DNA of 64,000 nucleotides. It comes from Lingula anatina (taxonomy: Eukaryota > Animalia > Brachiopoda). Each line of letters opens with the position of its first letter. The first letter of the stretch is position 1. The DNA is taken from positions 4,410,954 through 4,474,953 of the forward strand of contig CM120644.1 in NCBI GenBank assembly GCA_051362555.1. The letters are read 5' to 3'. The notes below the pieces were generated by a model, which was not told the origin of the DNA, did not search any database, and saw only the letters and a list, made by a program, of their open reading frames with translations. A program made the position numbers and the translations under genes. Positions 9,304-52,542 of the stretch are shown piece after piece.

Positions 9304-10270
9304 TTATCGCATGAGTGTATATTCAAGCAAGGGAAGGAAATTTAACCCATCAAAATTAGCAAACACATACGCCATGTCGAGGTCCTTGCCGGTGAAGACA
9401 GCTCCCTCCCAAATCACCCTATTGGTCGACTTCAGGTAATACCACTTGCCTTTGATAATGACGGCCACTTTCTTTGCACCCGGCACTTCGACCTTGAACT
9501 TGATGTTCTTGTTCAATTTAAGGTCCCCGTAGATTGGTTCGTGGAGTCGGCATTTCATCCAACGGGTGAGGGCCTTAGGCGAGACTTTAGGCGGGCATTC
9601 TGGCTGTTTGGGACAGAATATAAGATAACTGTACAGACAGTCCATGGTTGGGTTCGAGTCCTCCAGCTCTGCAGCGTAGATTGAAAAAGCATAGTAGCCC
9701 TGCTCGGGGAAACGTATCACGTAGGATACGGCCATTTTCTCTCGATACTGCTGAAAGGCGAATCGGTCAAAATTGTCGTCATGGTAATCGTAATTCCCAC
9801 AGAGAAGCTTATGGTTGACCTTGACCGGCTTTTCGAAACCGAGGTCAATTACTAATTCACCACGTGATTCGATGAATGGCTCTTGGTGGCTCTCCAATTC
9901 GAGGCCCAGCGCACTTGCAGCCGGAAGTGGCCCAACGCCAAGAGGAAGGAGAGGGAATCTGAATTTAGAATCCGGCTCTATGTAATCACAACGGATGCCG
10001 AATATACAAATGCTGTTGTAGACCTCGGAAGATGACCTGGAGTCGTTGGCAAAGATCGTCAGCGTGTGATCACCGCGTCTGGGGATGTTTACGTTAAATA
10101 TGATCTTATTATCTACAATGTGGTGGATGGCAAAGCGATCCAGGATCTCCCCCTCCGACTGCAGTCTTGTGGTGAAGGAAAGGCGGTCTGGGGTCTCGCA
10201 GCCGAGGACGATGTCGACTTTACCAGTGTCCGTGGAAACCATAGCGCTCTGGTGTGATCTTCAAGAGTTA

Positions 10271-10314
<44 letters not shown>

Positions 10315-13300
10315 GAGAGGCAGATTACAGGATTAAGCGGTCTTTCTTTCATGTAGGGTCCGCCATATTTGTGCCATGGACCAGTTGACACTCGTATTTT
10401 TTTTTCATTCTGTATGGCCCCATAGGGAAGATAAATATTAGATGTACCAGGTTTTTCCCTCAATAAATACTTTTATAAATAAAAAATAAATAATTTTATT
10501 TATCTATATTTTTATTTTCACTTCTTATTTTTCATTTAAGATTTAAACAATATGAAACAGATATTACAGACTAAACACTATTGGTGCTTTTAAACGAACC
10601 TCAGACTGAGCCCATAGTGGAAAAAATGCGACTTGAGCAACGGCATCTGGACGAAATCCTCCATTGTGATGGGCTCCTCCAACAGCTGCCAGTTGGGGTC
10701 ATCCGGATAGTGCTGGTGGATGAAATCTTCCGGATCCGTCAAAAAGTAGAAGTCGTCATACTCGTAGCTGCATTCTTGGGATTTGGCGGCGTCGTCCTCT
10801 GCGCCCATCCCAGCGTAGGACCCTCTGGATGGATCACTTCTGCTGGAGCCTTCCCCGCCTCCGCCGCCACCGCCACGGAGACCGCTGTTGATTCTTCTCG
10901 CACCCCAGTGGGTGTCCACGAATCGCCACGAGCCGTCCACGTAAACCACGGTCCATTGGTTCCGAAATCGTTCGTCAGCAATCGGCATCCCTGGCTTGTA
11001 GCCGAAACTTTTGGAGTAGCCTTGGATGACGTGACAGTGGAGACCGGCGTAACTGGAGGAGAGAAGGTAGGCTGGTATCATTTATTTTGGGGAATAGACC
11101 TCACAACTTTATTGCCATTAAACAAGAAGAATAAGATGATTAAGAAAACGTATGTCTGAAATTACCATTTGTTTCATTGTGCACTGAAAAATTACTGTAC
11201 AACCCTGTAGCAATATTGACTTCAAATGTCATAGCATTACGTAGACACTGATAGCAAACTCAAACACACGGAAGAACTATCAACCGCCAGTAATCAACAC
11301 TAGATATATAAAGTGTACCTGCACAGTCTCTTGAACAAGTCGTGATAGCTCTCCAGTCCGTATTTTATTCCCCGCAATAAGAAAAACGGGCTGCTGGGAT
11401 CAATGTTGCCAAAAAACAACATCTTGTTTAAGTCTTTGACGGTGATCCAGCGAAATATGGCACTAAAAGATGAAAAAGAGCCTTATAGATTTAACATTAA
11501 AGGACATATCAATGGAAAATTGTTTTTGCTTATCAACAAGGATTATTGTAAGCGCAAATAAAGCACCGATTTTACTCAAATAATTTTACAAGATAATCAG
11601 GTCAAAAGCAAAAGACAATTTCGTCAATGATTTAAATTACAGATTCTGTCACTACGTTCAAATCACCAATGTACTCAATCGGTAGGGCGGATTGTGACGC
11701 GCTCCTCAATAGAAGCCCAGGTGACATGGTCAAACCTGCCTGGATACACTATTGTATTGTTTTACAGGAAATTTAATTCAAATTCAAGATAAGCTTGAGT
11801 ACCCGCTTTGCCTGCGGATTCTTACGTTAAAAAACAAGTGAAACATAATTCAAATACTTACCAGTGATTCAATATAATCAGTACTTACCGTGCTTTTTCT
11901 ACCTCATTTTTGCAGCTCCGCACTAGCCAGAAGACTAACTCGGTGAAGCTGTTTTGATCCCAGCTGGCAACCTAAAATGCAACGAGATTTTAAAAAGAAG
12001 AATTGCCTGTCGCACCTGGCATACTAGTGACCTGCAGTCTTTTTGTCACATCTAACACATTACATATACTCATCCGTCCGTCACGTCAAACGCAATATAT
12101 ATACTCGCTTGTCTAACATAGGTATTAGATGTCATGCGAACAACAGACAGTGGAAAACAAAAAGATGTGTTAAAAGTTTTAAAATACCTAAAACACACTA
12201 TCATACGTACAATTGTATGTAACAGTGCACATTTGTTTGACAAAGGAACAAAAAAACCTAGGATAGGCTCTCAGAAGTGGGCCTGTTTCATATAGGGACA
12301 GTCTGTATTTTACCTCAATAGCCTGATGATCCACGTTCTCGAAGGAAGCTGAATTTGCGATCAACTCCGCCTTCTTTGTGGTCGGTGGTCGGGGTGGTGG
12401 TACCATAGATTTGTGCTAGATATAATGTAATGTAATAAATAGATAAATAAATAGACATGACGTAATACTTTTAAAAATATTGACTGCCTATAGGTACATG
12501 TACTAGTGTTTTACTAGTGTTGAAGCTTTCATTAAGCGATCAGCTACAATAACTGCGTGATGTCATAGGATAAATGTATTTAGTAATAAAAAAGAAAGGG
12601 ACAAAACCCGGTGAATCAGTACTGCTATGCAAAATACTTTTTTCTACAAAACTTGAAAAGAAAACAGCCACAATGATGCTCGTGGATTACTTCTTTCATC
12701 TTTTATTTGTTGCCGCAAATTCCCAGTTCCAGGAAATCCCTCTTGATTTCTTTTTGATGCCCTATTGATAATTCGAGAGGTATTGAACTATCGCTGATAA
12801 TTCCAATTAATTACTGGACTTGCATTGTTTAATTTTAAAATTCGAAAAAAAAAAAAAAGATTGTACGTCTTAAGCCTGTTGTAACCCCTGACTACATCAC
12901 GCCATTTGGTATCACCTACCTTTTTAGAAATGAGCTGCAGCATTTCACTGCTCTGTTTATCTATCATTCCGGACAGACGGTCTCGTTCCTGCGCAGACAG
13001 ATCACTGAGCAGATCCTGCAGACGATCTTGCTTCAGCGTTTTGAAGTGCTCTTCAATTTGGTACTTCTCCTTGTTGAAGTCGCCGGTGAAGTAGCCTAGA
13101 TGATTAAACAAACAAACGAACAAATAAATAAACAAATAAATAAATAAATACCACGTAAGGATATCAGGTAATTTGTATGTCTTAAAAAAACACCAATCTA
13201 ATTCGTCGCACATTTTGTATATTCGGTAAGGCAAATATTTAGTTCCAGAATATGGATGAAGTACCGTTTTCCACTTCATAGCTGGTACCCATAGTATGAA

Positions 13301-16300
13301 TCCAGTTATCATTTTAAGTTCTCATCTTAAATGGCATTAAGGTCTACCTGAGAATTGGCTTAAGGAAAAACGTAAATACTGCAGCAAGTACACATACCTC
13401 GATCCATTTCCTTCAACAAATTCTTCACAGCATGCTCCAAGTCTCCCCGGATCTCGCGCTCGAGTCGTTTTATCTCGGACTCCCTCCGGTTTTCAAAATC
13501 CTTGAATATTTTATTCTCTTCTTCCCTCTGCTTCAGCTCCAGCTCGTTTTGGGCAATGAATATCTTGTCCTTTTTGGCCTCTTCAGGGATGGCATGGGCG
13601 CCGGTGGAAGAGGTGCTGGGTCTAGTGCGAAGTGTTCCGTCAGGAGAAGAGATGGTCGCCTGCTGGGCCAGCATTTCAGCCAGGAATGGAGGCTAGAGTA
13701 CATGTAGGTATACGTTTGTGAATGTGTATAATAAACAGTGGCAGATGGAATATGATTTATCAAATATGATTTATCAAATATTTTATATATATGAACCTTT
13801 GGCCAGAGGAATGTTGGGAAATACTTCTTGGGAAAGTGAAAATCAATCCAAAAATCAATAATATCGACCATCAACATCCTTAATTAAGAAACAGCATAAA
13901 TAGATTTCCAAACCCTACGGTCTTCCATGACAATGGCAAGCTCAGTTAAGCATTATGCAAAGTGAAATTACTCTATGTCATTATAAGAATATTTTTTCAC
14001 CTGACTGGCGTCCAAGGGGTCATACTGGCTAAGATCCGCACCGGATCCTCTCCGTCCATACGGTTTGGCGTAGTGCCGTTCAGAGTTATTCACCAAGGCC
14101 TGGAAGAGAACCCCCTTCTTGTTTATTGAAGTGAAACAACATCAGTAAGGGCCCCTTTACACTGGACGGCGTCCTTTCTGCGTCCAGCAGTACGGCCCCA
14201 TTTGAGAGTTAAAAAATTATAATACTTTACGTGCCGACAACTGGCCGATCATTGAGCATCCATTCTGATACAAAATTAATGCTCGTGCTTCCTTATTAAG
14301 ACCACAGCGATGCCAAATTTCATGGTCGCAGAGATTACGCAGAAAGGACGCCGTCCAGTGTAAAGGGGGTATAATTAAACCATGGAAAGATAATTTTCAT
14401 TATGATTTCGGTTCCAGGTGAGTAAAGGCGTGCCGTCTTCATGCCCCCCCCCCCAAAAAAAAAATAAATAAATAAAGGGCATTTTAAAGTACAACCATAG
14501 TATAGTATTAACTTGTGTTAGATGTTCGCCAATGGGCTGGCGTCATTTGTGGAACGTTTTCATCCGATTTCATCAGTATTGATCAACTTAATGGAATTGA
14601 TATAAATTCTAATCTATTTAATTATTTTTCAATTGGTTTAATTCGTAAACTCAATCTCAATTTTATAAATCTTTATCGATTTTGTACCTCTTGATCCCCA
14701 CCCGGTTGCATCCTGTCAAAATCCGGCCCATACAACTCCTGCATAAACATTCTGAACTTAGCCCTGTCTCTTGCGGTTAGGGTCTGGATCATGTGCATCA
14801 TCTTGTCGTCAAGGTTCTTCCGGTTGTCTGCGCCTGCGCGGATGCGTAGAGTCTCGTAGTGACAGTCGTCGTCGATGAATGCACTTCGGTTGCCTGGATA
14901 CCAAATAAATAAACCATGCATCAGTTAAGAGTGTTTTAGTTACTTTCAATTTGCATAGAACTGTTTGTCATAAATTATGTATTTTTTATTAGGGTCACAT
15001 TCCTCCCGATGACTATGTGCATAAAAAAGTAATATGGAATTAAAGCAAAAAACAAATAACAAATGACTTCTTTCAACAAAATGAAGATTCATACCAAATA
15101 AAGATCTTTAAGAAATAAATAAGCTATGTTTATGATGCATCTATTAAGATCTACTAAAAGGTGCAATATCTTATCGAAACTTTCGACCCTTAGGCCTTCA
15201 TCAGATGTTCGAAAAAAAATCTTCATAGATGCATCATTGTGATAACTTATTAATTTCAATGAAACGATGAGACTTATTCTTTTTTGTAGAGGAGTTTAGA
15301 AAAACATGTTTCACATGCACAGATGCACCAGCGTCTGAATGTCAACAGGATAACCTTGGAAGAATAATTTGTCAACTGATATATTCCGTGACATATGTTC
15401 GAGCCTCCAGATGGTACGAGGAAGTAACATGGTCTGAAATGCAGGCAAATCAAAACTGCATTCACATTTAAAAATTCTAATTTCTTGACAACAAGTAGAT
15501 AAAAACATATGGATGCAGGATGTTTTAACGGAAGAGTTTGGTTTGAAAGCTGCCGAGTAATACATTGCAGAAATATGTTGCGTTTGTTTTGTATTGCACG
15601 TTACTATGTTCGGATTGTAATTGATAAATATGGCTTCAAAATAAAATAAATACATAAATACATAAATAAAGATGCACTAAAACCTTGGTCGCCGTATCCC
15701 TGCCCATTGGACGGCACGTAATCGTAGTCACCAAGAGAATCCCCGGCTTCTCTCGATACGGGATAAGGGGATTTCCCGGCAAAATGATCCTCAAGGCAGG
15801 AAGCAATGGTTTTAACCGAGTCACGGTCAATCTCTCCGTTGAGAAGTTTGTCTGTAAGTTCATTGTATGTTTCTGTGTCCTGAAAATATCGATGAAGATA
15901 AGGGAGCGCAGTATTAAGTAAACAACTACAGACTATAAAGTGAGACAATTTACTCATCAGGTAATCCATGTGTTAATTAAAGAAGTTTGAGCGGGTGTTG
16001 AAATGACGAACACTTCCCATTCTGAAAACCTTTATCACGCGAAATATGTAGAAAATAACCTCATTGCATGCTTAAATACCAAAAACTCAAAACTTGTCAC
16101 TTCGGCCCTTACTTGTTGGTCCAGGGGTACTTCCGGTTGCGGAGGCTTTTTCTTCCGGTTCCGGTCATTTAGGTATTTAGCGTGTGAGAATTCCAGGGCG
16201 TAAGGGTCGTACTCCCAATCTGTTGTATCTTGGATGCGAATCTAAGAAAGTGAAATTATCCACAGACCAAGTCTCAATACATACATGTACCGTACGTGTG

Positions 16301-17167
16301 ATGATTATGCGCATGAATACTGTGAGACACGCATGTACTAGAATGTGATTCTGTCGAAAAAAAATAATTGGAAACAATCTTATTGAAAAAATTAAAATAC
16401 TTTGTCTGTGGGATCAAGAAACTGACACAAGATTTTACCTCAGGAGCTTTTGAGAACGACCTAAAAAAGAGGCCGAATCACTGAAGCAGGGTGCTAGCTT
16501 ACTCACGTGATTGTTAAACCCCCGATAACTACTGATTTGCTGTGCGTTCATTGCATTCCGTATGCCAATGGATTCGTTGTCCATTCCATGTTTTACCACT
16601 TTTGGAGCATGCGTCTTGCAGAACACTTCCTTTTTCCCTCTTTCTCCATGACTTGACACGGCAGCAGTTGACAGGGTCAATACCACACCGCATTCTATAC
16701 ACCGGAAACAGCCCTTGAGGTGATTACAAAAAGTAAATGATTTCCTTATAGAAGATTTATTGAACAAATGGACAGACAGAGAATATACAGCAGTAGTTGT
16801 CTTAAAATCGTTGGATATTTCGTTGTGGTTGTCAAAACTATCGCTAACCCATAATTGAAGTGACATAATTGACGCAATAAAGATAAAAGAAAATGACGTA
16901 AAATCGTTATGCATTTTTATGAAGGGAAAACCGAAATAAAGATATATGGGCTGTTTTATATGTCGTCTGTATGCTTACTTTATGATAAATGAGCCTATCC
17001 ACTGTTATTCTTTCCGCTTGGTACACGGCACGGCGACAACGGTGGCATTTGTCACTTCTCACTGCCTTTTTAAACATATCATAGGAGTCAGAGCTACTTC
17101 CCCTTACGGCCCTCCGATCATCTTCGGATAACATCGGAGAGTTTCGGCCACTTATCCCGAATTCCAT
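9304..17167 (-). CDS. hil: Hillarin-like protein: N-terminal LIM, coiled coil, transglutaminase-like (KY/Cyk3-type) domain and C-terminal beta-rich repeats (13 coding exons, about 1077 aa)
   Basis: Phase-consistent exons (minus strand): 17167-16979, 16713-16507, 16241-16113, 15879-15684, 14893-14688, 14099-14001, 13692-13398, 13095-12920, 12415-12314, 11971-11889, 11462-11319, 11052-10600, 10258-9304 (3234 nt). LIM: CHRC-x17-HKGCFRCIEC-x-CKTH. Hillarin signature: EKARAIFRWITVKDLN...LLRGIKYGLESYHDLFKRLCSYAGLHCHVIQGYSKSFGYKPG...RFRNQWTVVYVDGSWRFVDTHWGAR...YDDFYFLTDPEDFIHQHYPDDPNWQLL. Confidence 0.9.
14149..14371. mobile_element. PIF/Harbinger-like MITE in a hillarin intron
   Basis: 32-bp inverted repeat CCCCTTTACACTGGACGGCGTCCTTTCTGCGT (14152-14183 and 14337-14368), flanked by TAA at 14146-14148 and 14372-14374. 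TWA target duplications are typical of PIF/Harbinger. Confidence 0.8.
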
Positions 17168-17609
17168 CCGGTCCAACAGTCACACTTGTTTCTAATAACA
17201 AGACATACAAATGTATATTTTCAGGAAACCTTGGACCTTCTTGACGCTATAGAATATTTGAAATATCTCTGTTAGAATTGAAAATCAAAGCAAAATTAAA
17301 ACAAAATCAGATGTCCATTTTCGGCCTACAGACGAATAATGATTGCGAAAGGCATTTATACACACCTTCAAAACTGAAAAAGAGCCTTTTCCAGTGACCG
17401 GCACGTCTCCCAGTCGCACAGTTTCGGCCCTAATTCTTCACTGATCTGCCAGCGTTATGATCACAGCATAGTACGACTCTAGTCTGGTAGAGACTGCAGT
17501 CATTATCACCTCCACCACCGCCCTGTGTTTACGTCATAAGTCGCATCTGGTGGCAGACGACAGCTGCTCCTCAGGTGGTCACATGGTTCCGGTTGTTTTC
17601 TAAAGGTCG

Positions 17610-18541: not shown

Positions 18542-19247
18542 GGAAAAAATAAATAAAGCAAGACTGTCTTAGTCAATCGTTAAATATTTGCCTATTATGT
18601 TTATTCTTGCTCCTCTTACTCACATGTTTAAATAAATACTTTAGGCAAATCTGGGATCCGCCAGAGTCATGAAAATACCAAAATGTGACTGGAATGTATC
18701 GAGTGTTTGATATAGTAATGACAAGCGTCCTATAGTAATTACATGACTTTGATCAGAGGTTGGCCATCTTGGAATTAGTCCCCTACCTGCTACCCCACAA
18801 AAAACCCTCGCTCATCGTAGATATTTTTTATTACATGAACAGGATTTTTTCCTGCCACAAAAGACATAACAAATAGATATGACCTTTCTCGGCGTCTTCA
18901 CAGTTCTAAATTTACACATAATACTTGAATTGCATACAGGTTTATTCACTGTGCCACATGCACGTGGTCGCAGCTGGTCTGGGCGTGCGACCGGTTGTAA
19001 AACAATTACATATGTTCTGATGTTGGTCTCTCACCTTAAGAAAAATGTCTACCCCAATAATGCGTTTCTCATATGTGAACACGGATAGTTCTTGCACTAA
19101 TGGATCCAGTATTTTGCTATTGGGGGGAGGGACACCAGGATAACAATATTACAATGCAAGCGAGAGAAAAAACAAAAGCATGAAACGAGTTTTTTCATGA
19201 TATTTAGGGGACAAGGAGGTAAAAATGATTGATTTTGTCTCATTCCA

Positions 19248-19300
<53 letters not shown>

Positions 19301-20102
19301 GTGGCCATGGGTACTTCAGACGTTAAAGGCTTCTTCACACCTAGTGAATGATTTGCGAGCATGTAATCACCCTGTTTAAAGCGTAATAAAATGAATATGT
19401 TTTTGAAGATGCTCAAAACATTTTATTTCATTCTGGGTATAGGAACGTACACCAACGTACGTGACGTGAGTCAAACTTAGCCCTTCTGTTTGTCTGCGTA
19501 AGGGGGATTTTTCTCATAACTTAATGCTATACACTATTTGCGACAGCTGGACCCGCCGACGTGTTACACTTGAACACAATCTTAAAACATACCAGATTGC
19601 ACTTTAAAGTTTAACTCAAGTAAGTTAAGAATTTACCCTTAAACCAAAAGCAATATATATAATCGAATAAATTCGAAATGCCAGAAGTGATGCTTGTTTT
19701 CCATGATTGCGCCACCAACAAACACGATTGTTGAATAAGGCATAATGCTAACATGTTCATCAAGAAATGCAAGCTTAATACATGTATAATTTAAAGGCAA
19801 GTCAGCTGATAAAACTTCATTAATGCCTATGGAAAAAATAATTTTTAAAAATCCTTAATCTTTACAAAACTGGCCTATGAAAAATATTGTTATGAACATA
19901 CAATACATAACCAATGATAAATTATAACAAGAAAATAATTTTATTTTCCATAAACTAATCCAGATAAATACTGTATTTTGTATTTAAACAACAAAGGAAT
20001 CTACCATATATTTCTTATGGAGAATAAAGCATAACAAACAAATAACCCTCTTAGTGGGTTTAAAAACGTCAATAAATAATCCATCATACCATAGATATAT
20101 TT

Positions 20103-21331
20103 TTAAGCAACAGGCTTGTATCGTTTAAGTAATAAAAGTGCTTTTTCAACGGCGTGTTCCGTGGAAAGAGCCAAATGCGAGCTCCGAATACTCCTTTCCC
20201 ACGTGTGGTAATAGTTCGCCTGTTTGTTTGTCAAGCTGTTCACAACAACATTCGGTTTCCCTAGCAACGTGCTAATTAGATGTGCATGCAGACGATCCGT
20301 CACGACGACATGCGCACGCGCAATAAAGAGAACACCAGACATGGCTTTGAGTTGATGATCTTCGAAAAAATCGTCTGCATTTTCATTCATCCATTCTGCC
20401 TTCCAGTCAGTTATCAAGTATTTTATACCGGGTGGGAATTTTGGCCGATTTGCACTGGTGAACCCTGGACTCTCCCAGTCGTCACGCTTGATCCATATGA
20501 CGTCATAACTGGGGATGACGTTCACTTGTAACGGTCCCGCAGCAAATGCAGAGTCCGGGACAAGCAGAAGCTTATTTTTCAAAAAGAAATGTGACGCCAT
20601 ATCAAAAGACGGTTTGTCACGTAGCATAACAATGAAATCCTTATGATTCCCGTAAATTTGAGCAAATTCGGTAATATTCTGGCAGCCAGGTGTGGGGTGA
20701 CACACGCTGGTTGGAAATTGCACAATACGATTCCTAGGGAAAGCATCAGCCGTTTTCTTCAGCACATACAAGTGCGCAGGGTGGCCAATATACCCAGCAC
20801 CTTGGACCATCACGACCAAATCTTTCGACCTCTTGATCTGAGAAAAATCGCAGTATGTCCCCGGGTAGTAACAATGGTACACTATAGATATGTTCAAACC
20901 CTGTAGAATAAGTCTCTGACCGATCGTAATGAACTGGTCGCCTTTGTTAGGCCACTGGAAAACGTTCACCAAAACGGCCCTCTTGTACCCCGCAAGAACG
21001 CGAGAAAACAAAGTCGTCTGGATCCGCTGCGCCTCCTCTATTACTTCCTCAGTTGTAGTCAATAACTGAGATAAATGGAACGCATTGGAAGAATCTGCAT
21101 AGAGGTCTGCATTGACGAAACTTCGGTCTTTGGGACTGAGGTCAGTTCTGGTGAAAGGTCGTATGCGACTGAAGGGAAACTGGAAGACACTGGTTGTGTT
21201 AGATGAGACGGCGGTCGCAATCTCAACCGAGTTTCCTGGCAAAGCTGTGCCCCAGTGGTAACCCGCCATGGCTAGGACAATGGACGACATGATCACCGTC
21301 AGCCATAGGGACTGTTGTTCGGAGCAGTTCT
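20103..21331 (-). CDS. Exon encoding a TM helix and a polysaccharide pyruvyltransferase domain (PS_pyruv_trans; Pvg1/EpsO/GumL-like)
   Basis: Family motifs in the expected order: PNKGDQFI, VQGAG, IVQFPTS, MLRDKPSF, LVPDSAF, WIKRDDWE, VVVTDRLHAHLISTLLGKPNVVV...K. Hydrophobic LWLTVIMSSIVLAMAGY precedes the domain; sequons NTT, NIS, NIT follow it. Confidence 0.9.
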
Positions 21332-23187
21332 CTGGAAAATACAAAAATAAAGAATGATTTTGTCACGTATTATAGAAGTGCATATTTTTAACAAGGAACA
21401 CAAGGATCATGATTTATACAAGTATGTTGACAGTAATAGCCCACTTCTAATGCACGTATTTTTTCTTGCAATTACATGTTTAATGTGCAGTATATCATTA
21501 TACATTTGTTAATTATGACATGAAATACAAGATACACAATAAAAAAATTATATAGTGTAATACTTCTCAGCGAACAATAATCATAATTATAATGGATTTG
21601 CTAAATGCTTTAACTGATGTTTTCGAGGAAAATAATGAAGGGTTTTTACAAAAAAAAAAAATGCACCAAATATATTGTTTAGATAACATACCTCTTGTGA
21701 CCGCATTATAATTAATAATATTATAATGACGAGACTATTCAATACACACAATGGGAGTTACACATTAAAAAATCGAGGAAAAAATTTCAAGGAAATTTCA
21801 ACACTTTTCCTTTAATCGCCCATGTGCAGCATATCGAAAACTGTTGACAGAATCAAGATCCATAGACTCGTGTCTCGGTCCCATGTCTCTCCGTTTTGGC
21901 ACACTAGTGACAAAGATGGAGACTTGCGAATTTCACTCGCAATGGTAAAAACAAAAATGCAAAATGCCCAAGATTGTATTATTTTGTCATTTATTTGTAA
22001 TGCGATTAAGTAGTTTTGGGTAAGATATATCTTGGTAATTAAAAGAGAATTCGAATTTTTGGGGTGCTATATTAAGGTTTTACTTGAAATGTATGCCTTC
22101 AAGAGGACAAACAGTACTTACTTTGTCTTGTAGCCGCTGGGAACACGTACAAGGCCAATCCAAGAATTATAACCGTCCCGGAAAAATAGTTCACGGGAAG
22201 GAGTAAATGTTTCCCTATCATATAAAAGAGAAGCGCCAATGAAATCCTTTTCATTAGATTAGCCATGGAATGTGCAACGACTGATATATATTTGAGTATG
22301 ATACACGTTGAGATAACGGTGTAAGTCACGTGAAGTATCGCCGAAACGAGACAGGGCTGAAGCAGTCCCGCAGCTAATAATGTAGGAAACATGTCTGGTG
22401 CCGCTACGGCTAGGAAAATTTCCATGAAGAGAAGCAGGAAAGCAGCCCATGTGCTCATTTTCGCTAAAGTCTGGACCTGTACCAAAGGTGTTTTGTTTGC
22501 CATACTTTTCAGCGTAACGTTACGCAATCCAAACAAAATATTTGATAAAAAGGCAAGCGTGAGTCCTAGTGTTTCTCCCATCCTGTACTGTGGTCTCCAC
22601 ACAAACCCGATAGACCCTATGACAACTAAGGGCAATGCTATTATCGTATTCGTCTCCAACTTTTTCCCGCTTAAAATGCTGGACAGCACCGCTGTAGTGA
22701 TGGGCTCAAACGCCTTCACCGTAAACGCGCTGGACGCGTCACAAAACGCCAAGCTAGCGTTCGTACACATCGTGGCCGCCATGTGGCTTACAGACAGGGT
22801 GACAAGGGACAAATCAGTGTTTGGAAGTCTCGAGCTCTCACAGGGTTCCTCTTGTCCCTGTGTTACACCATTGGTCACTTTTTCCACCCCTGTGTCCGAG
22901 TGGGGGTCGGCGCTCATGCTTTCCTTGGCGTCCAGCCCCATCCAGGTAAGAAGACGCCGGCTGCATAGTCTGGGAAGCAGAAGGAGAACACCGGCTCCGA
23001 CAACAATTTGACAAAGGCTTAAAATTACCACTGCGTACCACAAAGCTTTCTTCTTCTCGGTCGTCTCTTGTTGTTCCTGAGGTATGTTCCCCCAGGTTCG
23101 AAGCGCTTTCCGGGCGAAGTAGTGAGCGTAGAACGAAAACAGAGTCCAGGCTAGGAAAGCCACGAAGCCTCTCACAGCCCGGCTCAT
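20103..23187 (-). CDS. Predicted fusion protein: TPT/SLC35E-family transporter + extra TM helix + polysaccharide pyruvyltransferase (2 coding exons, 764 aa)
   Basis: Exon A 23187-22122 starts at CCACCATG and ends ACA AGA CAA A|gtaagt (phase 1). Intron 22121-21332 (790 bp) ends ttatttttgtattttccag. Exon B 21331-20103 begins AG AAC TGC, so the junction reads TRQ-K-NCSEQQ in frame (355+1+408 aa). Confidence 0.8.
22122..23187 (-). CDS. Exon encoding a triose-phosphate-transporter-family (SLC35E / plastid pPT-like) multi-pass transporter
   Basis: About 10 hydrophobic segments. TPT-type motifs SHMAATMCTNASL, FTVKAFEPITTAVLS, LAFLSNILFGLRNVTLK, LHVTY, ISVVAHSMANLMKRI, GTVIILGLALY. A splice acceptor at 23221-23222 indicates upstream 5'UTR exon(s). 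Confidence 0.88.
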
Positions 23188-23459
23188 GGTGGTGGAGGAC
23201 GATTGTATCGCAGATATGACCTAAAATAAAAAATATATATATATATTACTAAAGCATGAGATTTAACAGAAAGAAAGTTGACGTGCTTTTTAAAACGGTA
23301 GTCCAAATATGAGATACCAGTGTCGAAATGGTCAGTAACTCAGCAGTGAACTAATTGAGAAAGTCGAACTTAAACGATTTGAATTTACACGGTAGGTATG
23401 TGACGTTACAATACGATTGCATTTTATACTGGGTATCAGCCTAACCCTTCCGTCCATCC

Positions 23460-23497
<38 letters not shown>

Positions 23498-23799
23498 TGT
23501 GCAGCTGAAAGAAGTCTCCTCGAACTTCAAAATCACAGAATTCAGTAAATCACATTTTCATTATTAACTAATAATATTTAACTAACAATAGTATGCTAAT
23601 ATAGACTTTGCCAATTGAATATTGCAATTTAATTGCCCAGCGAAGAATTTCATGGAAAAATATAGTCCAAATAGTGGCAGAGAGTCCCCCATGGTAGAGG
23701 GTCCGCTTCCCATTCATTTGTACAGGTACCCCTCTCTCTAGATTTTGACTCATTTAGGTCAGGCTAACCCTAACCATAATAACTAAATGGAGGGTGGAG

Positions 23800-24170
23800 T
23801 TTCTGTTACACGGATCATCAGCTTCGTTACACCGGTGTCACAGCAATGGCAGTCCTAGGAATGGAAGTCCTGTGTCCCATGTGATTAGTACAGGTTAGGG
23901 TTAGTCAGAGTATTGGGGTTAGTACAGGTGTAACAGGAGTGGTAGTCAGCTAGGCACCGTAGTCCGTTCCCGATTACTTTGTAAAGGTGACATTCGTCGC
24001 ATATACTCACACCAATAATCTGACTAACACTCACCAGTACCAATCATATGCAACCCCGGACTTCTGTTCCAAGAACTACCATTCCTGTCACACCGGTATG
24101 TGGAATGAAAGTCACCTGTGCAAAGTACAGACTGTAAATGTTTCCAGCAGCTACCATTCCTGTCAACCTG
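23800..24170. repeat. Dispersed DNA-transposon-like repeat with GTGACAGGAATGGTAG / CTACCATTCCTGTCAC motifs
   Basis: Motif variants near 23833 and 23929 (+) and 24077 and 24151 (-), with ggttagggttag internal sequence. The same motif recurs at 55046-55207 and 60147-60205. Confidence 0.55.
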
Positions 24171-26100
24171 TGATAAGAAACCGAGGTCCATGTACCAGTC
24201 TGCTCTCCATTTAATCCACACAGTTTAGGGTGACCTTGACACTACCCCCCCCCCCCTCCCAACTGGGTCCGCTATTTGATTTATCTGTAGTCTTTCTCCG
24301 CGACTGTGGCAACCTACAAACCATGCGCCGCCTCAGGGGAAGCTATCTGCATTACTTTACGCTACAGGCATAGGCAGTATGTGCAAGTGACGGAATTCAA
24401 AACCTACTGCATAGATAGCATCCATAGTTTAGTTGCGATTTACAGCCTATAATATAAAACCACGATCTTTATTTATCAAGCATCTCCCACCACCATACTC
24501 TTTCGACGGTATACAAGTAAAATATAAATAATTAAAATCATGGAGGTATTTATAAAGTTAATGTTTCCTAGGTGAATAAAAGAAATCGATGTCTAATGTG
24601 ACGGGAAAAAACCACGACGTTGACGTCGGCACTCTCATCTATATAGAACTGTCGTGTGTGTACGCGTGTACGGCCCCCTCCCCCTCCCGTCATCTCGTGA
24701 TGTGAATATCAAAACTTCATCTTACCGTACTGGTTAAAACAACCGATAAACCTTTTCCTATGAAGCTCATTGTACATTACGATACCATCAATGTAATAAT
24801 ACTTACTAAGGTCACAGTGCAAATGAAATACAGTACATAGTGTGAAAGTTTACTAAATAAACTGTCAAAGGAACGGCCCACCCATTTTCATGGTTTGGTG
24901 TACATTTTTTTCGAATTGGTTTTGTACATTACTAATCATAAGTTACATTAATTGACTTTCATTAAGGAAAGCTTAAAGATTTATGCTCGCTTGTAACATG
25001 TCAAACCTTTTATAATTTATACCATGAGATGCAATACAACAAACTTTTAATCGTTAACATGAAAGATTTTATTTTCTGCATTCGAAGACGACTACAGACA
25101 GATGAATGTATCGGATAAAAACTTGTCCACTTACCGCTAAAATGTAAAATATTGGTAAAAAAAAGTATATTAAAAAACTAATGGGCGAGTTTAAGTATTA
25201 CTCCGTGCAAAATCAAAACGGAGACGTGCAATGATAGTTTTTGTTACAGTGAGATTATAAGAATGCTGAAGTACCCATTGGTTCACACGGGGGGGGGGGG
25301 GAGGTTCAGCAAAAGTAACAATCCAACCCTAGGGGAACGCTAGAATGGCGTCAGTTTGGTGACGTCAGTAAAGTGATATTATTTTAAAAAGCATTTCGGT
25401 ACTCGACATTTTGTTTGCTGGTGACCACTCACCTATGGAGATCCTTCTCAGTTGATCTACTGGTCAGTTTGGTGACCACTGCCCAGTCGCTGTGTGTTGG
25501 GTTGGTCAGCCCAGCTCAGGTTTTAAATGACACTTAAACGTCCTTGTCCTGTAAACGCATGGCAAACGTTTTCTTCCTACCTGGTTGAAAAAAAAGCAAT
25601 ACATGAATACCACGACCTACTTGTATAGTGTGGTCCAGATATCTACTCTTTATCGGAGACAGTGCTCAGCTGACGACTTTTCTATATGTTTAATGGAAAG
25701 AAATCGTCATACACCTATTGACATATATACATATGCATTTTAACATGTCTGCCTTTCCCATACGATGCGAGAAGCCGTTTTGTTTTACCACCATCATAAT
25801 AAAATGAGCTTGCTTAACCCAATGCACTACATCATAGATTCACTATATTATGCATTCAAGACATTTACTGGTGCTGTATGCATAATATAAAAATGCTCAG
25901 GGATAAGTTATGAAGTAATAATATAATTTTAGGGTATCAGATTCTATAGCAACATGAAGAATAAAATACGCGCCCCTACGCTCACGCCCAGGTATGCACA
26001 CACACACACACACAAACACAAACACACACACACACACGTGCAATGAACACATAGCACTTAGATATCCAACTGTTGGGTTTAAGGCATTGGTAAGCACACC

Positions 26101-26439: not shown

Positions 26440-27876
26440 TATCTCGTACAAAATCTCCCGTCCGGTGACGTACAGTTATCTTGAGAGTTGGTCACACATC
26501 AAGAACTCTCCATACAACCGGTACCCCTCCCTTCCCTTCCCTTTCCAATTACCTCCCACCACCTGTATTTAGGGTTGTTATAGGCCGTGTGCTAATCGTA
26601 AGACGTGCGACTGGTTATTACCCATGCCGGTGACACGGTCTCACATGGCTTTTTTTTTTCAGTCAAACCATGCATCACCAGCATTTATATCTTTATAGAA
26701 CCCCGTTAGCCATAAAGGCAACGTATCTGTCATACTTATTTTAATCTTCAAATCAGGGTTTATTTGGTAGGCCACAAAAAACTTTCCGATTGCGACGGTC
26801 TGGGCACGGAAAATGGGAGTAGCGTCCCACTGGTTAGAAGGGAGTTTTCCACTTGTATATATAGGTCAATGCATCCAGTATCATGGGGAATCAATAATTA
26901 CCTGAAAGACCACGGAAAAGCTACTCATACCTGTTTGTCTGGCTTGCTTATCCTGGGCGTCACCGCCCCTGTACGTCTGTCCTTATTTTCCTTAATTTCT
27001 CCCGCTATTAATTGTCAAAATAGTAGCAGCATCAGAACAAGTTGTCCTTCCATCGCATAGTTGAGGAGTTCGTCATGCACTTCGCGGCACAGGTAGTATA
27101 AACAAGCGTGGAGTTCCTTTCAACACACTGTATGGGTTGGCCCCGCGGTGCTACTATACAAAAGGGCGTTTACGATTGGGGCTTGCGAGACGCAAATATG
27201 CTAATGGCGGATTTTGAAATCTCGCAAATGCTGGACTCATAACAACACATTTTTATTCTGTCCGTTAATGTCTTTGAAATGTTACAATCTATCTTCCTAT
27301 GACTTTGATAATTAGTCGAAAACGGCACGCTTATTTGTCCGCTGTTTTCATGAAGTGTGCGATTTTGTAAAATTTAAGAATCTTTTTTGCTTTGGAATCA
27401 ACATCGTGCCCGTAAAGTACAAATATGTCCCTTTTTTCATAAGACCTATGACCTTTGTTAGTTGCACCACAGAAAAATAATAAACCGGCAAATGACCACT
27501 TAAACGGCATTGTTATAATAGAGCGCATTGTGAAGCAGACAGATTTGTTGAAAGAAAGGGGGGATATGAACAGAGATTAAATCAACTGCTGACCCGTGCG
27601 GTGAAGGCACGTGTGGAACCCCGCCATTGTCCCGTGGTATAAAATGTGTCATTTTGCGGTCCCGCAGTAGACCAAGGACACTGATGGCGACACTGTATGG
27701 CATGGTGTGTCCGTGGACTAGGGGAAGTGATTAAGGTGTGTGTGGTCACGGCGTTGATGGGTATCCTGAGCTAATGGAGGATCGGAGAGGCGAGGTGGTT
27801 GATAGAAGAAAGGGTGATGCTGCCGTCCTTTGATGGAGGAAGATCAAGGTAAAGATTTGGCTGTGTTTATACATGT

Positions 27877-33100: not shown

Positions 33101-34153
33101 CGCTGAAAATGCCTTAATCACGTAGCCATTAAGGTTCTATCTCATAGAATAGAAAGATGGACGGCCGTATTAGAGTGTCACGGCTCCTCCGTATTTCATC
33201 TCGTAAGATATAAAGTGTCAGTGATATATCAAAAAAAGACACATCTTTCTTATTATATACCGCATCAGGAAACTTAATCAGGAAAAGACATCAGTTCATA
33301 GAGTGATTTATTGACTTTATCTTCCTGCGAAGAGTGTGTATTACGTTTTATAATTCAGAGTTCATAAGTTTATAGGCCGCTTGATTCTCGCCATGGCGAC
33401 ATTAAGATTATTAAAAAAAAAAGAGAAACAAAGACTAGCGTGTCTTCGTCCCACCACATATATAAATTGGCTATACGAAGAATATGCCGTAGGTCCCTTT
33501 TTAATTTTTTCTTGCATGGTGATGTTTAAATTTAAATGAAAGACAAAGAGGAGGGGAGAGCGCCCCCTATCAGTCCTGCTACATGTGGTCCTGGCCTACA
33601 AGCAGTTACAATAAGTCTGCTCCAGTGTCATTTCTTCAAACCACTGGGACTGTGTGCCCCTGGTCGTCTCCATTGCACAAGGAACGCCGTTACAATTTAT
33701 GGGTTTAAGTCTTCGTTGATTTATCTATTTTTCGTTTATTTATCTTCTTTTTTTTTGGGGGGGGGGGGGGGGGTTCTCATTTTTTATCAAATACAAATGG
33801 ACGCACATACACATACTTGCATGTACACGACAATACAAAATGTTATATATAACTTTAGTGCAAAATATTTAAAATGTAGTAGTTATGTTGAAATAAATAC
33901 ATGAAAACAATTTTGTATACTCATTTCCATAAACGGATTGAAGCCTAATTTGTGTGACTTTTACTATTTTCTCCTACTTATATATTCTACGCTGTTGTAT
34001 GAATATAATCATATCTGACTAATTTTATACAAGAGAATATATGCTAAAGAGCTGAGATTAGTAATAATGCTAATGTGTAAATATGCCCAATATATTCTAA
34101 ACATCACCACTTATATTTCAGGTGGAGCGTGTGAAACAACAGACAAGTTCACC

Positions 34154-35593
34154 ATGTTAAAACAACTGACCAGACTTCAACGATGGAAATATGGTCGTCT
34201 TCTGCTTCTCGTCATTTGCTTTATCTTATCAGGGAATTTATTATTCCGAGGACTTACATATCAAGGCATACCTTCAACGACGATCCAGAAAGAGGGCGGT
34301 ATCAGAAAGGAAAGCCGCCTGATAGAGAGCGGGTCACATGACACGGGCCTAGTCGATGATGGCGAATTCGCGCATGCCCAGACGCTTGCCGGTGCTGTTT
34401 TCAAACAACACGCCATGTCGGACGAACTACTTACAAAAGTCGTCGTTTCTGTACCTCATTCCTTTTCTCCCACAACAGAACAAACTGTCGCCAAAATGTT
34501 CTCCGACGACCTCAACGAAAACATATATCACGGAATCGCCCCGGCAATCACGTGGGCGGACGACGAGATTATCGTGGTGCAACGTCTGTGGCTGGTGCAA
34601 TTTGAACACAGCGTGTACTACAAAACGGAGAAGCAACTGCGGAACACGTGGCACGAAAGTTATTTCTACACCCAGAAATTCAACAAAAACTACGAACCAA
34701 CGACTAAAGGGGAGTTGATGGGTATCCCCGTCCCGTCTAACTCTCAGTTTGATTACCGCTCCGACGGACCCATGGACCCACGGCTGATATGGGTGAACGG
34801 GACACTATACGTCAGCTTCCACATCTGGATCTGGGACGACAAAGACAAAGCCAGCAGAGGGCGCATGCATCTTTGGAACTGCCAGGAAAATTCCATTAAA
34901 AGATTAAATGTCAGGGATTACGATTTTCTAGTGGTTGAGATTAACTGGGCGCCATTGGAGATCAACGGGTCGCTGTATTATATATACACTCTGGATCCCT
35001 TTAGGGTGCTAAAATGTGAGCCGTCCACGGGCGACTGTCATTTTGTTGTGAATGACAGTCCCGATAACAACCGTTTTGAGTACAATAGAGAACATTTGCG
35101 CGGTGGGTCGCCATTTTTGTTGTACAAATGGCCTTATTACATAGGTATGGCTCACTCTGTGATCGTCTCTCAGACACCCAAAGAGAACTTTGGCATATAC
35201 AACACGCACCTTGTCATCATATCAGTTGAACCAACATTCCGTATAGTATATGTCAGCGCTCAAATCCAGTTCAAGGAAAAATTTCTGAACCAGTTTCCGA
35301 TTGCGCGCCCATACGCGCAGATGAGGCCTTTCGTTTTCCCGGTCGGTATAATATTTAGAAACGATGACGTCATCGATGTTGGTGCTCACTTGAACGACAA
35401 TAGTGGTTACGTCATACGCTTGCGAGGGATAAGAACGTTGGTGCGTGATGCCATTGCTTTAGACAAACACCATGGACGTAGAAGTAGACCCTCGCCTTTA
35501 GTTGTCAACGGATACGTGAGATCACGGCTAAAGAGTGCAAATCGAGATATGACGTTCAAAGGAGAAGAATTTTACAAAGATCTGGGCCACTAA
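34154..35593 (+). CDS. Type II membrane protein with a five-bladed beta-propeller glyco-enzyme domain resembling fungal beta-1,2-mannosyltransferases (Bmt/GT91; GH130/GT108-related fold); 479 aa, single coding exon
   Basis: Acceptor ttatatttcag at 34111-34121, then ACCATG at 34151-34156. Basic N-tail plus TM helix (RWKYGRLLLLVICFILSGNLLF), a stem, then DGPMDPRL, VEINWAPL, LYYIYTLDPFRVLKC-x5-C, HLRGGSP, YIGMAHS. These match the GPEDPR / EKNW-PF / Y-Y-PL-VLKC / LRGG(T/S) pattern. AATAAA at 35723-35728. Confidence 0.7.
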   Translation: MLKQLTRLQRWKYGRLLLLVICFILSGNLLFRGLTYQGIPSTTIQKEGGIRKESRLIESGSHDTGLVDDGEFAHAQTLAGAVFKQHAMSDELLTKVVVSVPHSFSPTTEQTVAKMFSDDLNENIYHGIAPAITWADDEIIVVQRLWLVQFEHSVYYKTEKQLRNTWHESYFYTQKFNKNYEPTTKGELMGIPVPSNSQFDYRSDGPMDPRLIWVNGTLYVSFHIWIWDDKDKASRGRMHLWNCQENSIKRLNVRDYDFLVVEINWAPLEINGSLYYIYTLDPFRVLKCEPSTGDCHFVVNDSPDNNRFEYNREHLRGGSPFLLYKWPYYIGMAHSVIVSQTPKENFGIYNTHLVIISVEPTFRIVYVSAQIQFKEKFLNQFPIARPYAQMRPFVFPVGIIFRNDDVIDVGAHLNDNSGYVIRLRGIRTLVRDAIALDKHHGRRSRPSPLVVNGYVRSRLKSANRDMTFKGEEFYKDLGH

Positions 35594-42202: not shown

Positions 42203-43170
42203 TTAAAAAGTAAGTGTGACGTCATACCGGATCGCTTTTCCTTCCGAATAAACATAGAGTTTTCCATCGCGTGGGTTATAATCCACCATGGTAAATGAGT
42301 CCCACGTGGTATCAGCGCTAAGACTTCCAGACGCCAGAGGTAAGTCTGTCGAAGTCAGCGTTTTTCCAGACCCGCGAAATAAATCGTAAACGTAACTGAC
42401 GTAATTTGTAGGACTGGAGTTGATGGCAAATAAAACACCGTCGATGATAAACGTCTCCGCCGTGTTGGTCTTAGCGTGATCAGAAATCACCCTGGTGTCC
42501 GAGATGTCCAGTGTTTCGGGATCCAAACGGCTGACCACAATGTTGTTACTCGTATTAGCATAAACCACCCAAAGCCCATGTTCATCTGCAGCGACATCTA
42601 TATCTGTGTGGCTCGCGCACGTGTACGGGTAGACGTCATGGACACCAGCATCGCTTGGCAAGTCACCGGTGGTCAAAGCTTGGCCATCGGTCAAGCGATA
42701 CTTCATGATGTTCAAGTTGTTATGTTGCCCACAGTAAAGATAACCGTCTCGTATAACGTGGGTCGTCCCGTCGCACTCCACGTCGATTTCCCTCGGAAGA
42801 TTCGTGTATGGGAAGTTTGCTGAGGTGTATTCTATCACTTTGCCCGGATTGTGAGACTTTTCCGTAATGTACACCATCCCGTTGTCCAGGGCAGTGTCTG
42901 TCATCCAGGAGCCTTCGTCCTTTCCTAGAGACGGATGCACGACGTCCTTGTTGGTGATTGATATCGCAACCGGGAAACCTCGTTCTGAAAATTAAATATA
43001 AACTTTGTGCGGCACGACTTCTAATGTGATTTGTAAGTAAAAGAAAAACGGATTATCAACGCTTCGGATATCTTCTGTTCAAATCAGAACTGAATTTGTC
43101 GGATAAAGTCATTTCCTTCAAAATATCAATATAAAATAATTTAGATAATTCCCTTTTCATTCATTCAAAA

Positions 43171-51702: not shown

Positions 51703-52542
51703 AGAAGAAGAAGAAGAAGAAGAGACAGACAGACAGACAGACAGGGATACACCTTGGTTTTTTTAATGTGTGTGTGTGAAAATGGCTACGATCCGAGAAA
51801 TACTGTTCGATTATTCATTTTTGAAACTCGTGTCGTGTGTTTTCATGGATGCGTTTCACATTGCGAAATTTCTGTTAAAACTGCCTCATCGGATGATAAA
51901 AAAAATTGACAATGGACATTCGGTTTAGGCAATTCAATCACGGTGCTAACTGTATGCCATGTATACCAAAGCATTACTAGGAAACAAGCCATAGAAATGG
52001 TGGGAGGGACGCAGAGCAAAAATGCAAAAAGACAGGACAAAGAAATAAGAAAACGCACACACTACCAACATAAATGCATAGTGAGAAAGTTACTGAGATT
52101 TAAAAATAAAGACACTAAAATAAATGGAGAAATCAACAATCAATTACGGCAATACAGATACTCAAGAGAAAAAATCCTCAACGCTTACCTTTTCGTAGTA
52201 TACAAAACGTTCTCTGTGAACAAGACGGTAGAGTCCTGCAGTCCACACTGTGCTGTTATTTAACTCGCAACTTCGGAAACCGCCCGCAAGACCCACCGGC
52301 GCACTTTCGTAGTTGAAGGACACACACCCGGCAGTGGAGAGGCACCTAACTGTGCACTCTCGCACGCTCTTCACTCTGTGCTGGGTCAGGATAGACCCAC
52401 TCAGGGCGCGGTTCGTGTTCTCGAATCCGCCGACCATAGCTAGCCGCTGCATTGAACACGACCTCACCTCCGATAACACTGCGGTGAGAGAACTCGAGAA
52501 AAAGACGAGCAGGACGAAGAAAACGAGTGGTATTACTCTCAT
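42203..52542 (-). CDS. Secreted PAN/apple - CCP(sushi) - CCP - olfactomedin domain protein (5 coding exons, 502 aa)
   Basis: Exons (minus strand): 52542-52189 (signal peptide + PAN: ECTVRCLSTAGCVSFNY...CELN), 44656-44626 (31-nt micro-exon VEDGGAIFVK), 43839-43672 (CCP1: CGAVPNV...YKCSNGF...IYCQTDGTWETPPTC), 43439-43266 (CCP2), 42984-42203 (OLF: GSWMTD, TDIDVAADEHGLWVVYA, IVVSRLDPETL, MVDYNPRDGKLYVY). Phases 0,1,1,1; total 1509 nt. Confidence 0.82.
45900..47863. repeat. Higher-order tandem array (about 160-bp monomer A interleaved with a longer unit B)
   Basis: A marker gaaagaaaagggcctggtc at 46353, 46900, 47063, 47220, 47779. B marker catgcctgacaatcaaatctgaggaaaaccac at 46029, 46688, 47563. 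Order B-A-B-A-A-A-B-A. Confidence 0.9.
48943..49520 (+). repeat. Diverged direct repeat of 45491-46070 (about 0.58 kb)
   Basis: Collinear shared blocks such as taacagcataatga, agtatcatgaatattcagaaaatgtga, actgtactgaaatg, aatctgacaaact, ataacaggtttacc, ataatgagactgtt. Confidence 0.85.
50040..50455 (+). mobile_element. 3' portion of a Helentron-associated (HINE / pearl / CvA-like) non-autonomous element
   Basis: Two tandem units of about 160 bp related to monomer A (gctgattttc.aacttgacc...catcagttctgta.gttt), then a (GAC/GGC)-type microsatellite at 50371-50418, a 14-bp stem-loop tatgtacagacaca-tc-tgtgtctgtacata at 50421-50450 and an A tract. This is the layout described for such elements. Confidence 0.6.

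What the first reader, a model, noticed from the sequence alone, without database searches (positions are those of the whole stretch)
20103..23187. Spliced fusion of a PEP/TPT-type transporter with a pyruvyltransferase: a self-supplying glycan ketal-pyruvylation enzyme in an animal
Seen: the ORF track lists two separate ORFs, but the transporter ORF has a consensus donor (CAA A|gtaagt, exon ending at 22122) 7 codons before its stop. The pyruvyltransferase ORF has no ATG at its start (the track uses TTG) and carries a strong acceptor (ttatttttgtattttccag, exon starting at 21331). The phases match (A+AG = Lys), giving one 764-aa protein: about 10-TM transporter, one extra TM helix, then a luminal PS_pyruv_trans domain with N-glycosylation sequons. 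Established: PS_pyruv_trans enzymes use phosphoenolpyruvate as donor, and in fission yeast the Golgi enzyme Pvg1 depends on a separate TPT-family PEP transporter (Pet1). Pyruvylated glycans are known from a few animals (sponge aggregation factor, Aplysia glycolipids), but I know of no characterised animal enzyme. Inference: donor import and transfer are coupled in one polypeptide, which would be a Rosetta-stone link between orphan SLC35E-like transporters and PEP supply to the Golgi.
Basis: partly seen in the sequence, partly recalled or inferred. Interest (0 to 1): 0.92.

Follow-up and report, generated by a model that had tools for sequence, protein, structure and literature searches.

The report
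Animal transporter–pyruvyltransferase fusion gene
An invertebrate gene joins a phosphate-exchanging membrane transporter to an enzyme of the family that puts pyruvate on sugar chains, so it likely imports its own donor into the Golgi and uses it there; the same joined design occurs unstudied in sea hares and other snails, making it a candidate for the unknown enzyme behind pyruvate-capped sugars in animals.

Summary
The fusion is real. A GT-AG intron (22121-21332) joins a TPT-family exon to a pyruvyltransferase exon, giving 764 aa. This is the best of 11 in-frame junctions and aligns without a gap to an uninterrupted 57%-identical homolog. Both exons carry RNA reads, but no junction-spanning reads were listed. 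The four phosphate-binding transporter residues and Pvg1p's D106/R217/R337 are kept. A homolog's model shows 10 carrier helices, an 11th helix and a Pvg1p-like domain. The design is not peculiar to this animal: 33 of 150 top cluster representatives carry both domains. Named ones include a bryozoan, five gastropod genera (Aplysia among them), chytrids, slime moulds and alveolates. This scan already reported the fusion on five other genomes. I found no paper describing it (10 searches). PEP specificity is unproven: the position that favours PEP in plant carriers holds Phe, not Asn. The SLC35E link was not tested. Verdict: an uncharacterised fused variant of the yeast Pvg1p/Pet1p system, and a testable candidate for animal glycan pyruvylation.

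The parts
22122..23187 (-). Coding exon 1: TPT-family (PF03151) 10-helix carrier, residues 1-355; K158, Y289, K313, R314 = GsTPT2 K204, Y339, K362, R363; also E161, R222, K227
21332..22121 (-). 790-nt GT-AG intron, phase 1, 30.6% GC; holds the stop of the unspliced ORF (22099-22101) and one AATAAA at 21995
20103..21331 (-). Coding exon 2: helix 11 (about residues 363-381, 21311-21257), stem, and Pvg1p-like PF04230 domain; D487, H542, R593, R702 = Pvg1p D106, H168, R217, R337
23188..23220 (-). 5' untranslated part of exon 1, after a strong acceptor at 23221
   Evidence: sequence; no read joint listed, and this spot was skipped as a repeat
25433..25580 (-). Probable 5' UTR exon (acceptor and GTGAGT donor consensus); belonging to this gene is inferred
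   Evidence: (minus-strand depth in X1; a 3-read joint in X7 towards about 26931)
26931..27100 (-). Probable further upstream UTR exon ending in donor GTATGA; 5' end not determined
18900..20102 (-). Probable 3' UTR; AATAAA at 19945, 19427, 18946; end not determined
   Evidence: read depth down to about 18834 in X7 and about 19168 in X1

Best explanation
Two exons splice in frame (predicted from the splice sites and from intact homologs) into one 764-residue membrane protein that likely imports phosphoenolpyruvate into the Golgi lumen in exchange for phosphate and likely uses it there to add a pyruvate ketal to a galactose-type sugar of glycolipids or glycoproteins. Shown: the two domains, their order, the conserved residues, and uninterrupted fused homologs. 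Inferred: (1) the carrier ends in the cytosol, so helix 11 acts as a type II anchor and puts the enzyme in the lumen; (2) the carrier is an active antiporter; (3) its cargo is PEP, and the phosphate released by the transfer is the counter-substrate, which closes the cycle; (4) the acceptor is a terminal beta-galactoside, by analogy with Pvg1p. The flexible stem suggests co-location of supply and use rather than direct channelling.
For: Junction. Fused homologs are 57% and 46% identical over the full length. 33 of the 150 listed 50%-cluster representatives carry both domains (27 by own HMMs; 6 more by Pfam, one of them below the TPT cut-off). An Atlas cluster of 60 is all eukaryotic, commonest Mollusca, 97% PF04230 and 93% PF03151. 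Three fused ORFs come from records named as transcripts (P0075, P0076, P0137). Closest solved relatives of the window's halves: Pvg1p 5AX7, E=4.4e-33, and GsTPT2 5Y78, E=1.8e-6. The model of P0001 (pLDDT 86.9) matches 5AX7 (TM 0.79 by target) and 5Y78 (0.69). Residues: K-Y-K-R intact in 28 of 38 rows with letters at all four positions; D-R-R intact in 39 of 41. Their roles are from passages of bioRxiv 206912 and 169169 and parts 1-2 of PMC4872226. Topology: sequons after helix 11 number 179 against 106.7+-8.8 in shuffles (0 of 500 reach it), before it 78 against 76.3; more K/R before than after helix 11 in 30 of 42 (related sequences are not independent). RNA: the stranded run X1 lies only in the minus-transcript direction over both exons, and X7 depth is 0 in the wholly intronic bin. 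By my arithmetic 12 of the 15 coding-region variants shown are third-codon positions (40 of 257 variant rows were shown). No TPT hit in any of 80 metagenome loci that encode relatives of the enzyme. These look bacterial (taxa not given), which fits a carrier being needed only in a lumen. Aplysia has both a fused homolog (A. californica XP_012943188) and a pyruvylated glycolipid (A. kurodai; passages of PMC6801904 and PMC6994554).
Against: No junction-spanning reads were listed; depth beside the joint is under 3 and most laid reads are only 90-95% alike to the window. Phe219 sits at the GsTPT2 Phe263 position, where PEP-preferring plant PPT has Asn. None of the 43 rows has Asn there (L 18, F 9, Y 5, others). 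His185 is also replaced (Thr), so the pocket differs from all characterised carriers. The carrier half is divergent (TIGR00817 53 bits against a cut-off of 318). 10 of 38 rows lack the full K-Y-K-R set (three have Arg for Lys). The Aplysia lipid carries a 3,4-ketal, Pvg1p makes a 4,6-ketal, and the acceptor-side His168 varies widely (His in 8 of 43). The Aplysia protein is only about 29-35% identical to this one and lies in another subclade. No glycan data exist for this organism, which is unnamed.
Confidence: 0.68

Rival explanations
1. One fused protein with an active pyruvyltransferase, but the carrier moves something other than PEP (3-phosphoglycerate, triose phosphate, or mainly clearing the phosphate product); PEP arrives by another route.
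For: Phe at the PEP-discriminating position and no Asn in 43 rows; distant likeness to SLC35B1 and nucleotide-sugar transporters.
Against: His185 and Phe192 of the plant pocket are replaced here (Thr139, Leu146), so the plant rule may not transfer. GsTPT2 itself binds PEP weakly (Ki 8.3 mM). Pvg1p depends on Golgi PEP transporters, and retention of the fusion across distant eukaryotes is most simply explained by donor supply.
Confidence: 0.15
2. The locus mostly gives separate products: a 362-aa carrier (intron read-through or intronic polyadenylation) and an independently started transferase.
For: An in-frame stop 7 codons into the intron and an AATAAA at 21995. A 362-aa protein with 4 differences from the unspliced ORF is in the collection (P0008). 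Some depth in the intronic bin in X1 (0.57). Many enzyme-only relatives start with their own anchor.
Against: The available ATGs lie inside helix 11 and would cut the anchor. The junction is gapless against P0001. About one AATAAA is expected by chance in 790 nt at 31% GC (my estimate). P0008 is what an intron-blind gene caller would give (inference). All 23 carrier-only hits sit among the fused proteins in the tree, and most end shortly after helix 10, as exon fragments would.
Confidence: 0.07
3. The carrier half is a relic that only anchors or localises the enzyme.
For: Some homologs have lost the binding residues (P0007, P0051, P0134, P0138). Earlier scan notes report the same for other copies.
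Against: This copy keeps K204, E207, R266, K271, Y339, K362 and R363 equivalents, and K128 as Arg. Its carrier core is as conserved as the enzyme against P0001 (66% and 69%).
Confidence: 0.05
4. The enzyme half transfers a group other than pyruvate, or faces the cytosol.
For: No animal member has been assayed; the GT-B fold is shared with many glycosyltransferases.
Against: D106/R217/R337 are kept in 39 of 41 rows; the two best solved matches by sequence are Pvg1p and WbbZ; sequon enrichment points to the lumen.
Confidence: 0.05

Closest known systems
Schizosaccharomyces pombe Pvg1p (PDB 5AX7) with the Golgi PEP transporters Pet1p/Pet2p
   Same: Pvg1p-like PF04230 domain after one anchor helix; D106, H168, R217, R337 all kept; needs luminal PEP (PMC4872226). 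That Pet1p/Pet2p are TPT-family proteins is recalled; the primary paper was not held.
   Different: Enzyme and carrier are one chain here and separate genes in yeast; about 28% identity in the structural alignment of the homolog; acceptor and ketal position unknown.
Plastid phosphate translocators (GsTPT2/GsGPT, PDB 5Y78; plant TPT and PPT)
   Same: 10-helix fold; phosphate site K204/Y339/K362/R363 plus E207, R266, K271 conserved.
   Different: No transit peptide; His185 is Thr, Phe192 is Leu, His201 is Phe; lacks the PPT Asn; far below the TIGR00817 cut-off; fused to an enzyme.
Uncharacterised database fusions, e.g. Watersipora XP_067938280, Aplysia XP_012943188, Spizellomyces XP_016605134, Vitrella CEL96597
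   Same: Same domain order TPT, helix, PS_pyruv_trans.
   Different: The window protein belongs to a small subclade with P0001, P0002 (bryozoan), P0005 and P0007, apart from the named gastropod copies. None has a functional name beyond one domain.
Bacterial ketal pyruvyltransferases (WbbZ 6X1L, CsaB, WcfO)
   Same: PF04230 family; PEP donor; WbbZ matched by profile (E=1.6e-4) and fold.
   Different: Cytoplasmic, no carrier needed; CsaB model not met (12 bits against 213).

Membership tests
Pvg1p-like ketal pyruvyltransferases (PF04230) | Pfam gathering score | tested here: met
   64 bits against 25.3
Pvg1p-like ketal pyruvyltransferases (PF04230) | D106, R217, R337 catalytic and PEP-binding residues | tested here: met
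   D487, R593, R702; roles
Pvg1p-like ketal pyruvyltransferases (PF04230) | GT-B-like two-domain fold | tested here: met
   model of the 57%-identical homolog P0001 matches 5AX7, E=1.9e-14, TM 0.79 by target; the window protein itself was not folded
Pvg1p-like ketal pyruvyltransferases (PF04230) | Type II anchor, luminal orientation | tested here: inconclusive
   helix 11 KD 1.44 here, 1.5 or more in 39 of 43; sequon and K/R bias favour the lumen; prediction only
Pvg1p-like ketal pyruvyltransferases (PF04230) | Transfers pyruvate from PEP to beta-Gal as a 4,6-ketal | not testable with these tools
   needs an enzyme assay
TPT family (PF03151) | Pfam gathering score and 10-helix fold | tested here: met
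   67.8 bits against 30
TPT family (PF03151) | Phosphate site K204, Y339, K362, R363 | tested here: met
   K158, Y289, K313, R314
Plant PEP/phosphate translocator (PPT) subtype | Asn at the Phe263 position | tested here: not met
   Phe219
Plastid phosphate translocators (TIGR00817) | Curated cut-off of 317.9 bits | tested here: not met
   53.3 bits
SLC35E / Pet1p subfamily | Orthology to SLC35E1-E4 or Pet1p/Pet2p in a tree | not tested
   no named member of either was among the proteins retrieved; the tree has no such reference
TPT family (PF03151) | 1:1 antiport of phosphate and a phosphorylated C3 compound | not testable with these tools
   needs liposome assays

The most novel reading that the evidence does not exclude
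This is a member of the missing animal glycan-pyruvylation enzyme family: a self-supplying PEP/phosphate antiporter-pyruvyltransferase whose Aplysia member makes the pyruvylated nerve glycolipids. Pyruvate would then be an overlooked, genome-encoded anionic cap (a stand-in for sialic acid) on the glycans of molluscs, bryozoans and other invertebrates, with the fused carrier possibly also feeding unfused paralogs.
Probability: 0.45. Interest if true: 0.82.

Novelty: new variant of a known kind. Interest (0 to 1): 0.62.

Why it matters
Pyruvylated glycans were reported from a sea hare and from sponges decades ago. The reviews I read in passages name only three characterised pyruvyltransferases (two bacterial, one yeast; PMC6801904). 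That review's sequence survey kept only proteins of 250-600 aa, which would drop the full-length fused forms (most are 650-1020 aa). A named Aplysia homolog turns an old glycobiology gap into a direct experiment, and the family predicts pyruvylated glycans in many invertebrates. A carrier fused to the enzyme that makes its counter-substrate is also a clean test bed for Golgi PEP import. The surprise is tempered: both activities are known from yeast, the fusion is visible in public domain annotation, and this scan has met it before.

Tried and rejected
No whole genome is held, so paralogs and a separate PEP carrier in this animal could not be checked. Sequencing runs: no RNA holder listed; nine same-species raw runs were offered and four were laid. 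Two of the four (X4, X5) gave no depth on the gene. A second lay of four more runs gave no result, so junction reads remain unseen. The first fold, from 3 sequences, was useless (pLDDT 43.5). The word-index searches returned only 3, 4 and 2 hits. The metagenome scan gave only 24-32% relatives, with no carrier in 80 of 80 loci. Single versus repeated origin of the fusion is unresolved. The enzyme tree is a quick tree (113 rows; rows covering under 240 profile positions and 5 near-duplicates left out) and the carrier tree is FastTree (58 rows); neither is rooted. The Mantel rho of 0.55 on 38 rows shows only that the halves are inherited together. Horizontal transfer was not tested. Contamination was rejected: neighbours are intron-split animal-type genes (KY/hillarin-like, olfactomedin, PAN). 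Literature: 10 searches showed no paper on the fusion. Searches returned zero. Searches were loose and I saw only the top 30 of 5,963, 20 of 104 and 20 of 123 listings, none holding the pyruvyl term. Subscription journals and supplements were not searched, and genome-paper tables could list the architecture. Scan look-ups by sequence and place found nothing. An Atlas look-up for the ORF at 34019 did not complete.

Full report
Observation. On the minus strand an ORF starts at ATG 23187 and would stop at 22099-22101; a second open frame runs 21362-20103. Joining 23187-22122 (1066 nt) to 21331-20103 (1229 nt) over a 790-nt GT-AG intron gives 764 codons with Lys356 at the joint. Pfam assigns TPT (E=1.3e-18) and PS_pyruv_trans (E=2.8e-17), both above cut-off. 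Splice hexamers are common (39 GTAAGT in the window), so I tested the joint against outside sequence. P0001, an uninterrupted 757-aa protein from a 4.1-kb contig, is 57% identical end to end and aligns without a gap across the joint. Of 11 possible in-frame joins, the proposed one scores best (100, next 78). The neighbours are intron-split animal-type genes, so the context is an invertebrate genome.

Expression. Four of nine offered runs were laid, 6-25% of each read. X4 and X5 gave no depth on the gene. X1 (stranded) covers both exons in one direction only, consistent with a minus-strand RNA, at depth about 1-8. X7 covers both exons and is 0 in the wholly intronic bin, where X1 has 0.57. No joint at 22122/21331 was listed: the tool needs 3 reads, depth beside the joint is under 3, and most laid reads are only 90-95% alike. 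So reads show transcription, not the splice. A 3-read joint in X7 fits an upstream UTR intron (about 26931 to 25580). By my arithmetic 12 of the 15 coding-region variants displayed fall on third codon positions (only 40 of 257 rows were shown).

Family. A profile search of 1.84 billion representatives listed 150 proteins. 27 of them carry both domains by HMMs built here, and 6 more among 25 scanned with Pfam (P0085 is under the TPT cut-off). Of 23 proteins looked up by name, the named fused ones come from Watersipora subatra, Haliotis asinina and H. rufescens, Elysia marginata (with E. crispata in its cluster), Physella acuta, Aplysia californica, Pomacea canaliculata, Vitrella, Cryptosporidium canis, Physarum, Ceratiomyxa, Spizellomyces and Quaeritorhiza. 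P0026 has only a gene id that I recall as a copepod's. Three records are named as transcript assemblies. The Atlas shows a 60-member all-eukaryote cluster, commonest Mollusca, with both families. In both trees the window protein is sister to P0001 in a small, well-supported group with the bryozoan protein. The animal-type sequences, including the named gastropods, group apart from the protist and fungal fusions (quick, unrooted trees; P0019 changes side between them). None of 80 metagenome loci with 24-32% relatives of the enzyme holds a carrier.

Anatomy. The closest solved relatives are Pvg1p (5AX7, E=4.4e-33) and GsTPT2 (5Y78, E=1.8e-6). A model of P0001 from 106 sequences (pLDDT 86.9, pTM 0.61) has ten carrier helices, an 11th helix and a stem of low confidence, and an alpha/beta enzyme domain. 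Foldseek ranks 5AX7, 5Y78, WbbZ and SLC35B1 first. I aligned 43 proteins (the window protein, 39 with both domains, and 3 doubtful long ones: P0051, P0134, P0138). The window keeps the GsTPT2 residues whose mutation abolishes exchange (K204, Y339, K362, R363, R266; passages of bioRxiv 206912) and Pvg1p's D106, R217, R337 and H168 (PMC4872226 parts 1-2 of 5). K-Y-K-R is intact in 28 of 38 scorable rows and D-R-R in 39 of 41. An 11th hydrophobic helix (KD 1.5 or more) is present in 39 of 43; here it is 1.44. Sequons are enriched after helix 11 (179 against 106.7+-8.8) and not before it (78 against 76.3), and K/R favour the side before it in 30 of 42. This fits a luminal enzyme, with the caveat that relatives are not independent. 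That Golgi carriers of this fold have both ends in the cytosol is recalled.

Mechanism. Most likely the carrier exchanges cytosolic PEP for luminal phosphate, and the tethered domain transfers pyruvate as a ketal to a terminal galactose-type sugar, regenerating the phosphate (confidence 0.68). The weak step is the cargo. In plant carriers Phe at position 263 disfavours PEP and PPT has Asn (passages of bioRxiv 169169); this protein has Phe and none of the 43 rows has Asn. Other pocket residues also differ (His185 to Thr, Phe192 to Leu), so the rule may not carry over, but PEP transport is inferred from the fusion, not from the pocket. The acceptor is unknown; the H168 position varies widely, suggesting different acceptors across the family. 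Enzyme-only relatives with their own anchor exist in the same clade; some may be real unfused paralogs and some exon fragments.

Comparison. It works like the S. pombe Pvg1p plus Pet1p/Pet2p system put on one chain. It is a member of PF04230 and PF03151, but not of the plastid TPT/PPT subfamilies. An SLC35E relationship was not tested. Pyruvylated animal glycans are reported from Aplysia kurodai (3,4-ketal) and sponges (4,6-ketal) (passages of PMC6801904 and PMC6994554). An Aplysia fused homolog exists but is only about 30-35% identical to this protein. A Cryptosporidium paper mentions two pyruvyl transferases without noting a fusion in the passage seen (PMC6877471). Passages of PMC8724618 add nothing on enzymes. 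Ten searches showed no description of the fusion (three were loose and seen only in part). The 2019 review's survey was limited to 250-600 aa. Supplements were not read.

Earlier scan notes. Five notes report the same fusion in a chytrid, a diatom and three other eukaryotes. I saw them after finding the range myself; I confirmed the chytrid and mollusc occurrence but did not check their loci.

Verdict. A real gene and a new member of an uncharacterised, patchily pan-eukaryotic fused variant of a known yeast pathway. Its value lies in giving a testable candidate for animal glycan pyruvylation. Interest 0.62.

Noticed in passing
window 34019-35593 (+): Intronless 524-codon frame with an N-terminal anchor-like helix and a weak match to fungal beta-mannosyltransferases (PF12141, E=0.0014, below cut-off). 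Possibly another unusual Golgi glycosyltransferase, 11 kb from the fusion gene.
   Followed up: partly
window about 9304-17179 (-): Multi-exon gene with KY-like Ig domains (PF23265), a transglutaminase-like stretch and an upstream LIM-like exon; it looks like hillarin (name recalled).
   Followed up: partly
window 42203-42991 (-) and 52162-52554 (-): Olfactomedin domain exon (E=1e-48) and a small secreted PAN-domain protein.
   Followed up: partly
window 23680-24100: Repeat-like element with inverted parts, abundant in all four RNA runs with loose ends and opposite-strand joints; it lies in the probable 5' UTR intron.
   Followed up: no
proteins P0090, P0141, P0003/P0004, P0168: Other fusions of the same enzyme domain: with GT8 (P0090) and a weak Fringe-like match (P0141); a tandem double domain in Vitrella; a 1085-aa Spizellomyces member whose cluster also holds a methyltransferase-annotated protein.
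   Followed up: no
proteins P0020, P0157, P0158, P0015, P0023: Several fused paralogs per gastropod genome (at least three loci in Haliotis rufescens, all with Arg for the K204 lysine; two in Physella).
   Followed up: partly
proteins P0007, P0051, P0134, P0138: Long homologs whose carrier half has lost the phosphate-binding residues; P0134 has also lost the enzyme's catalytic residues.
   Followed up: partly
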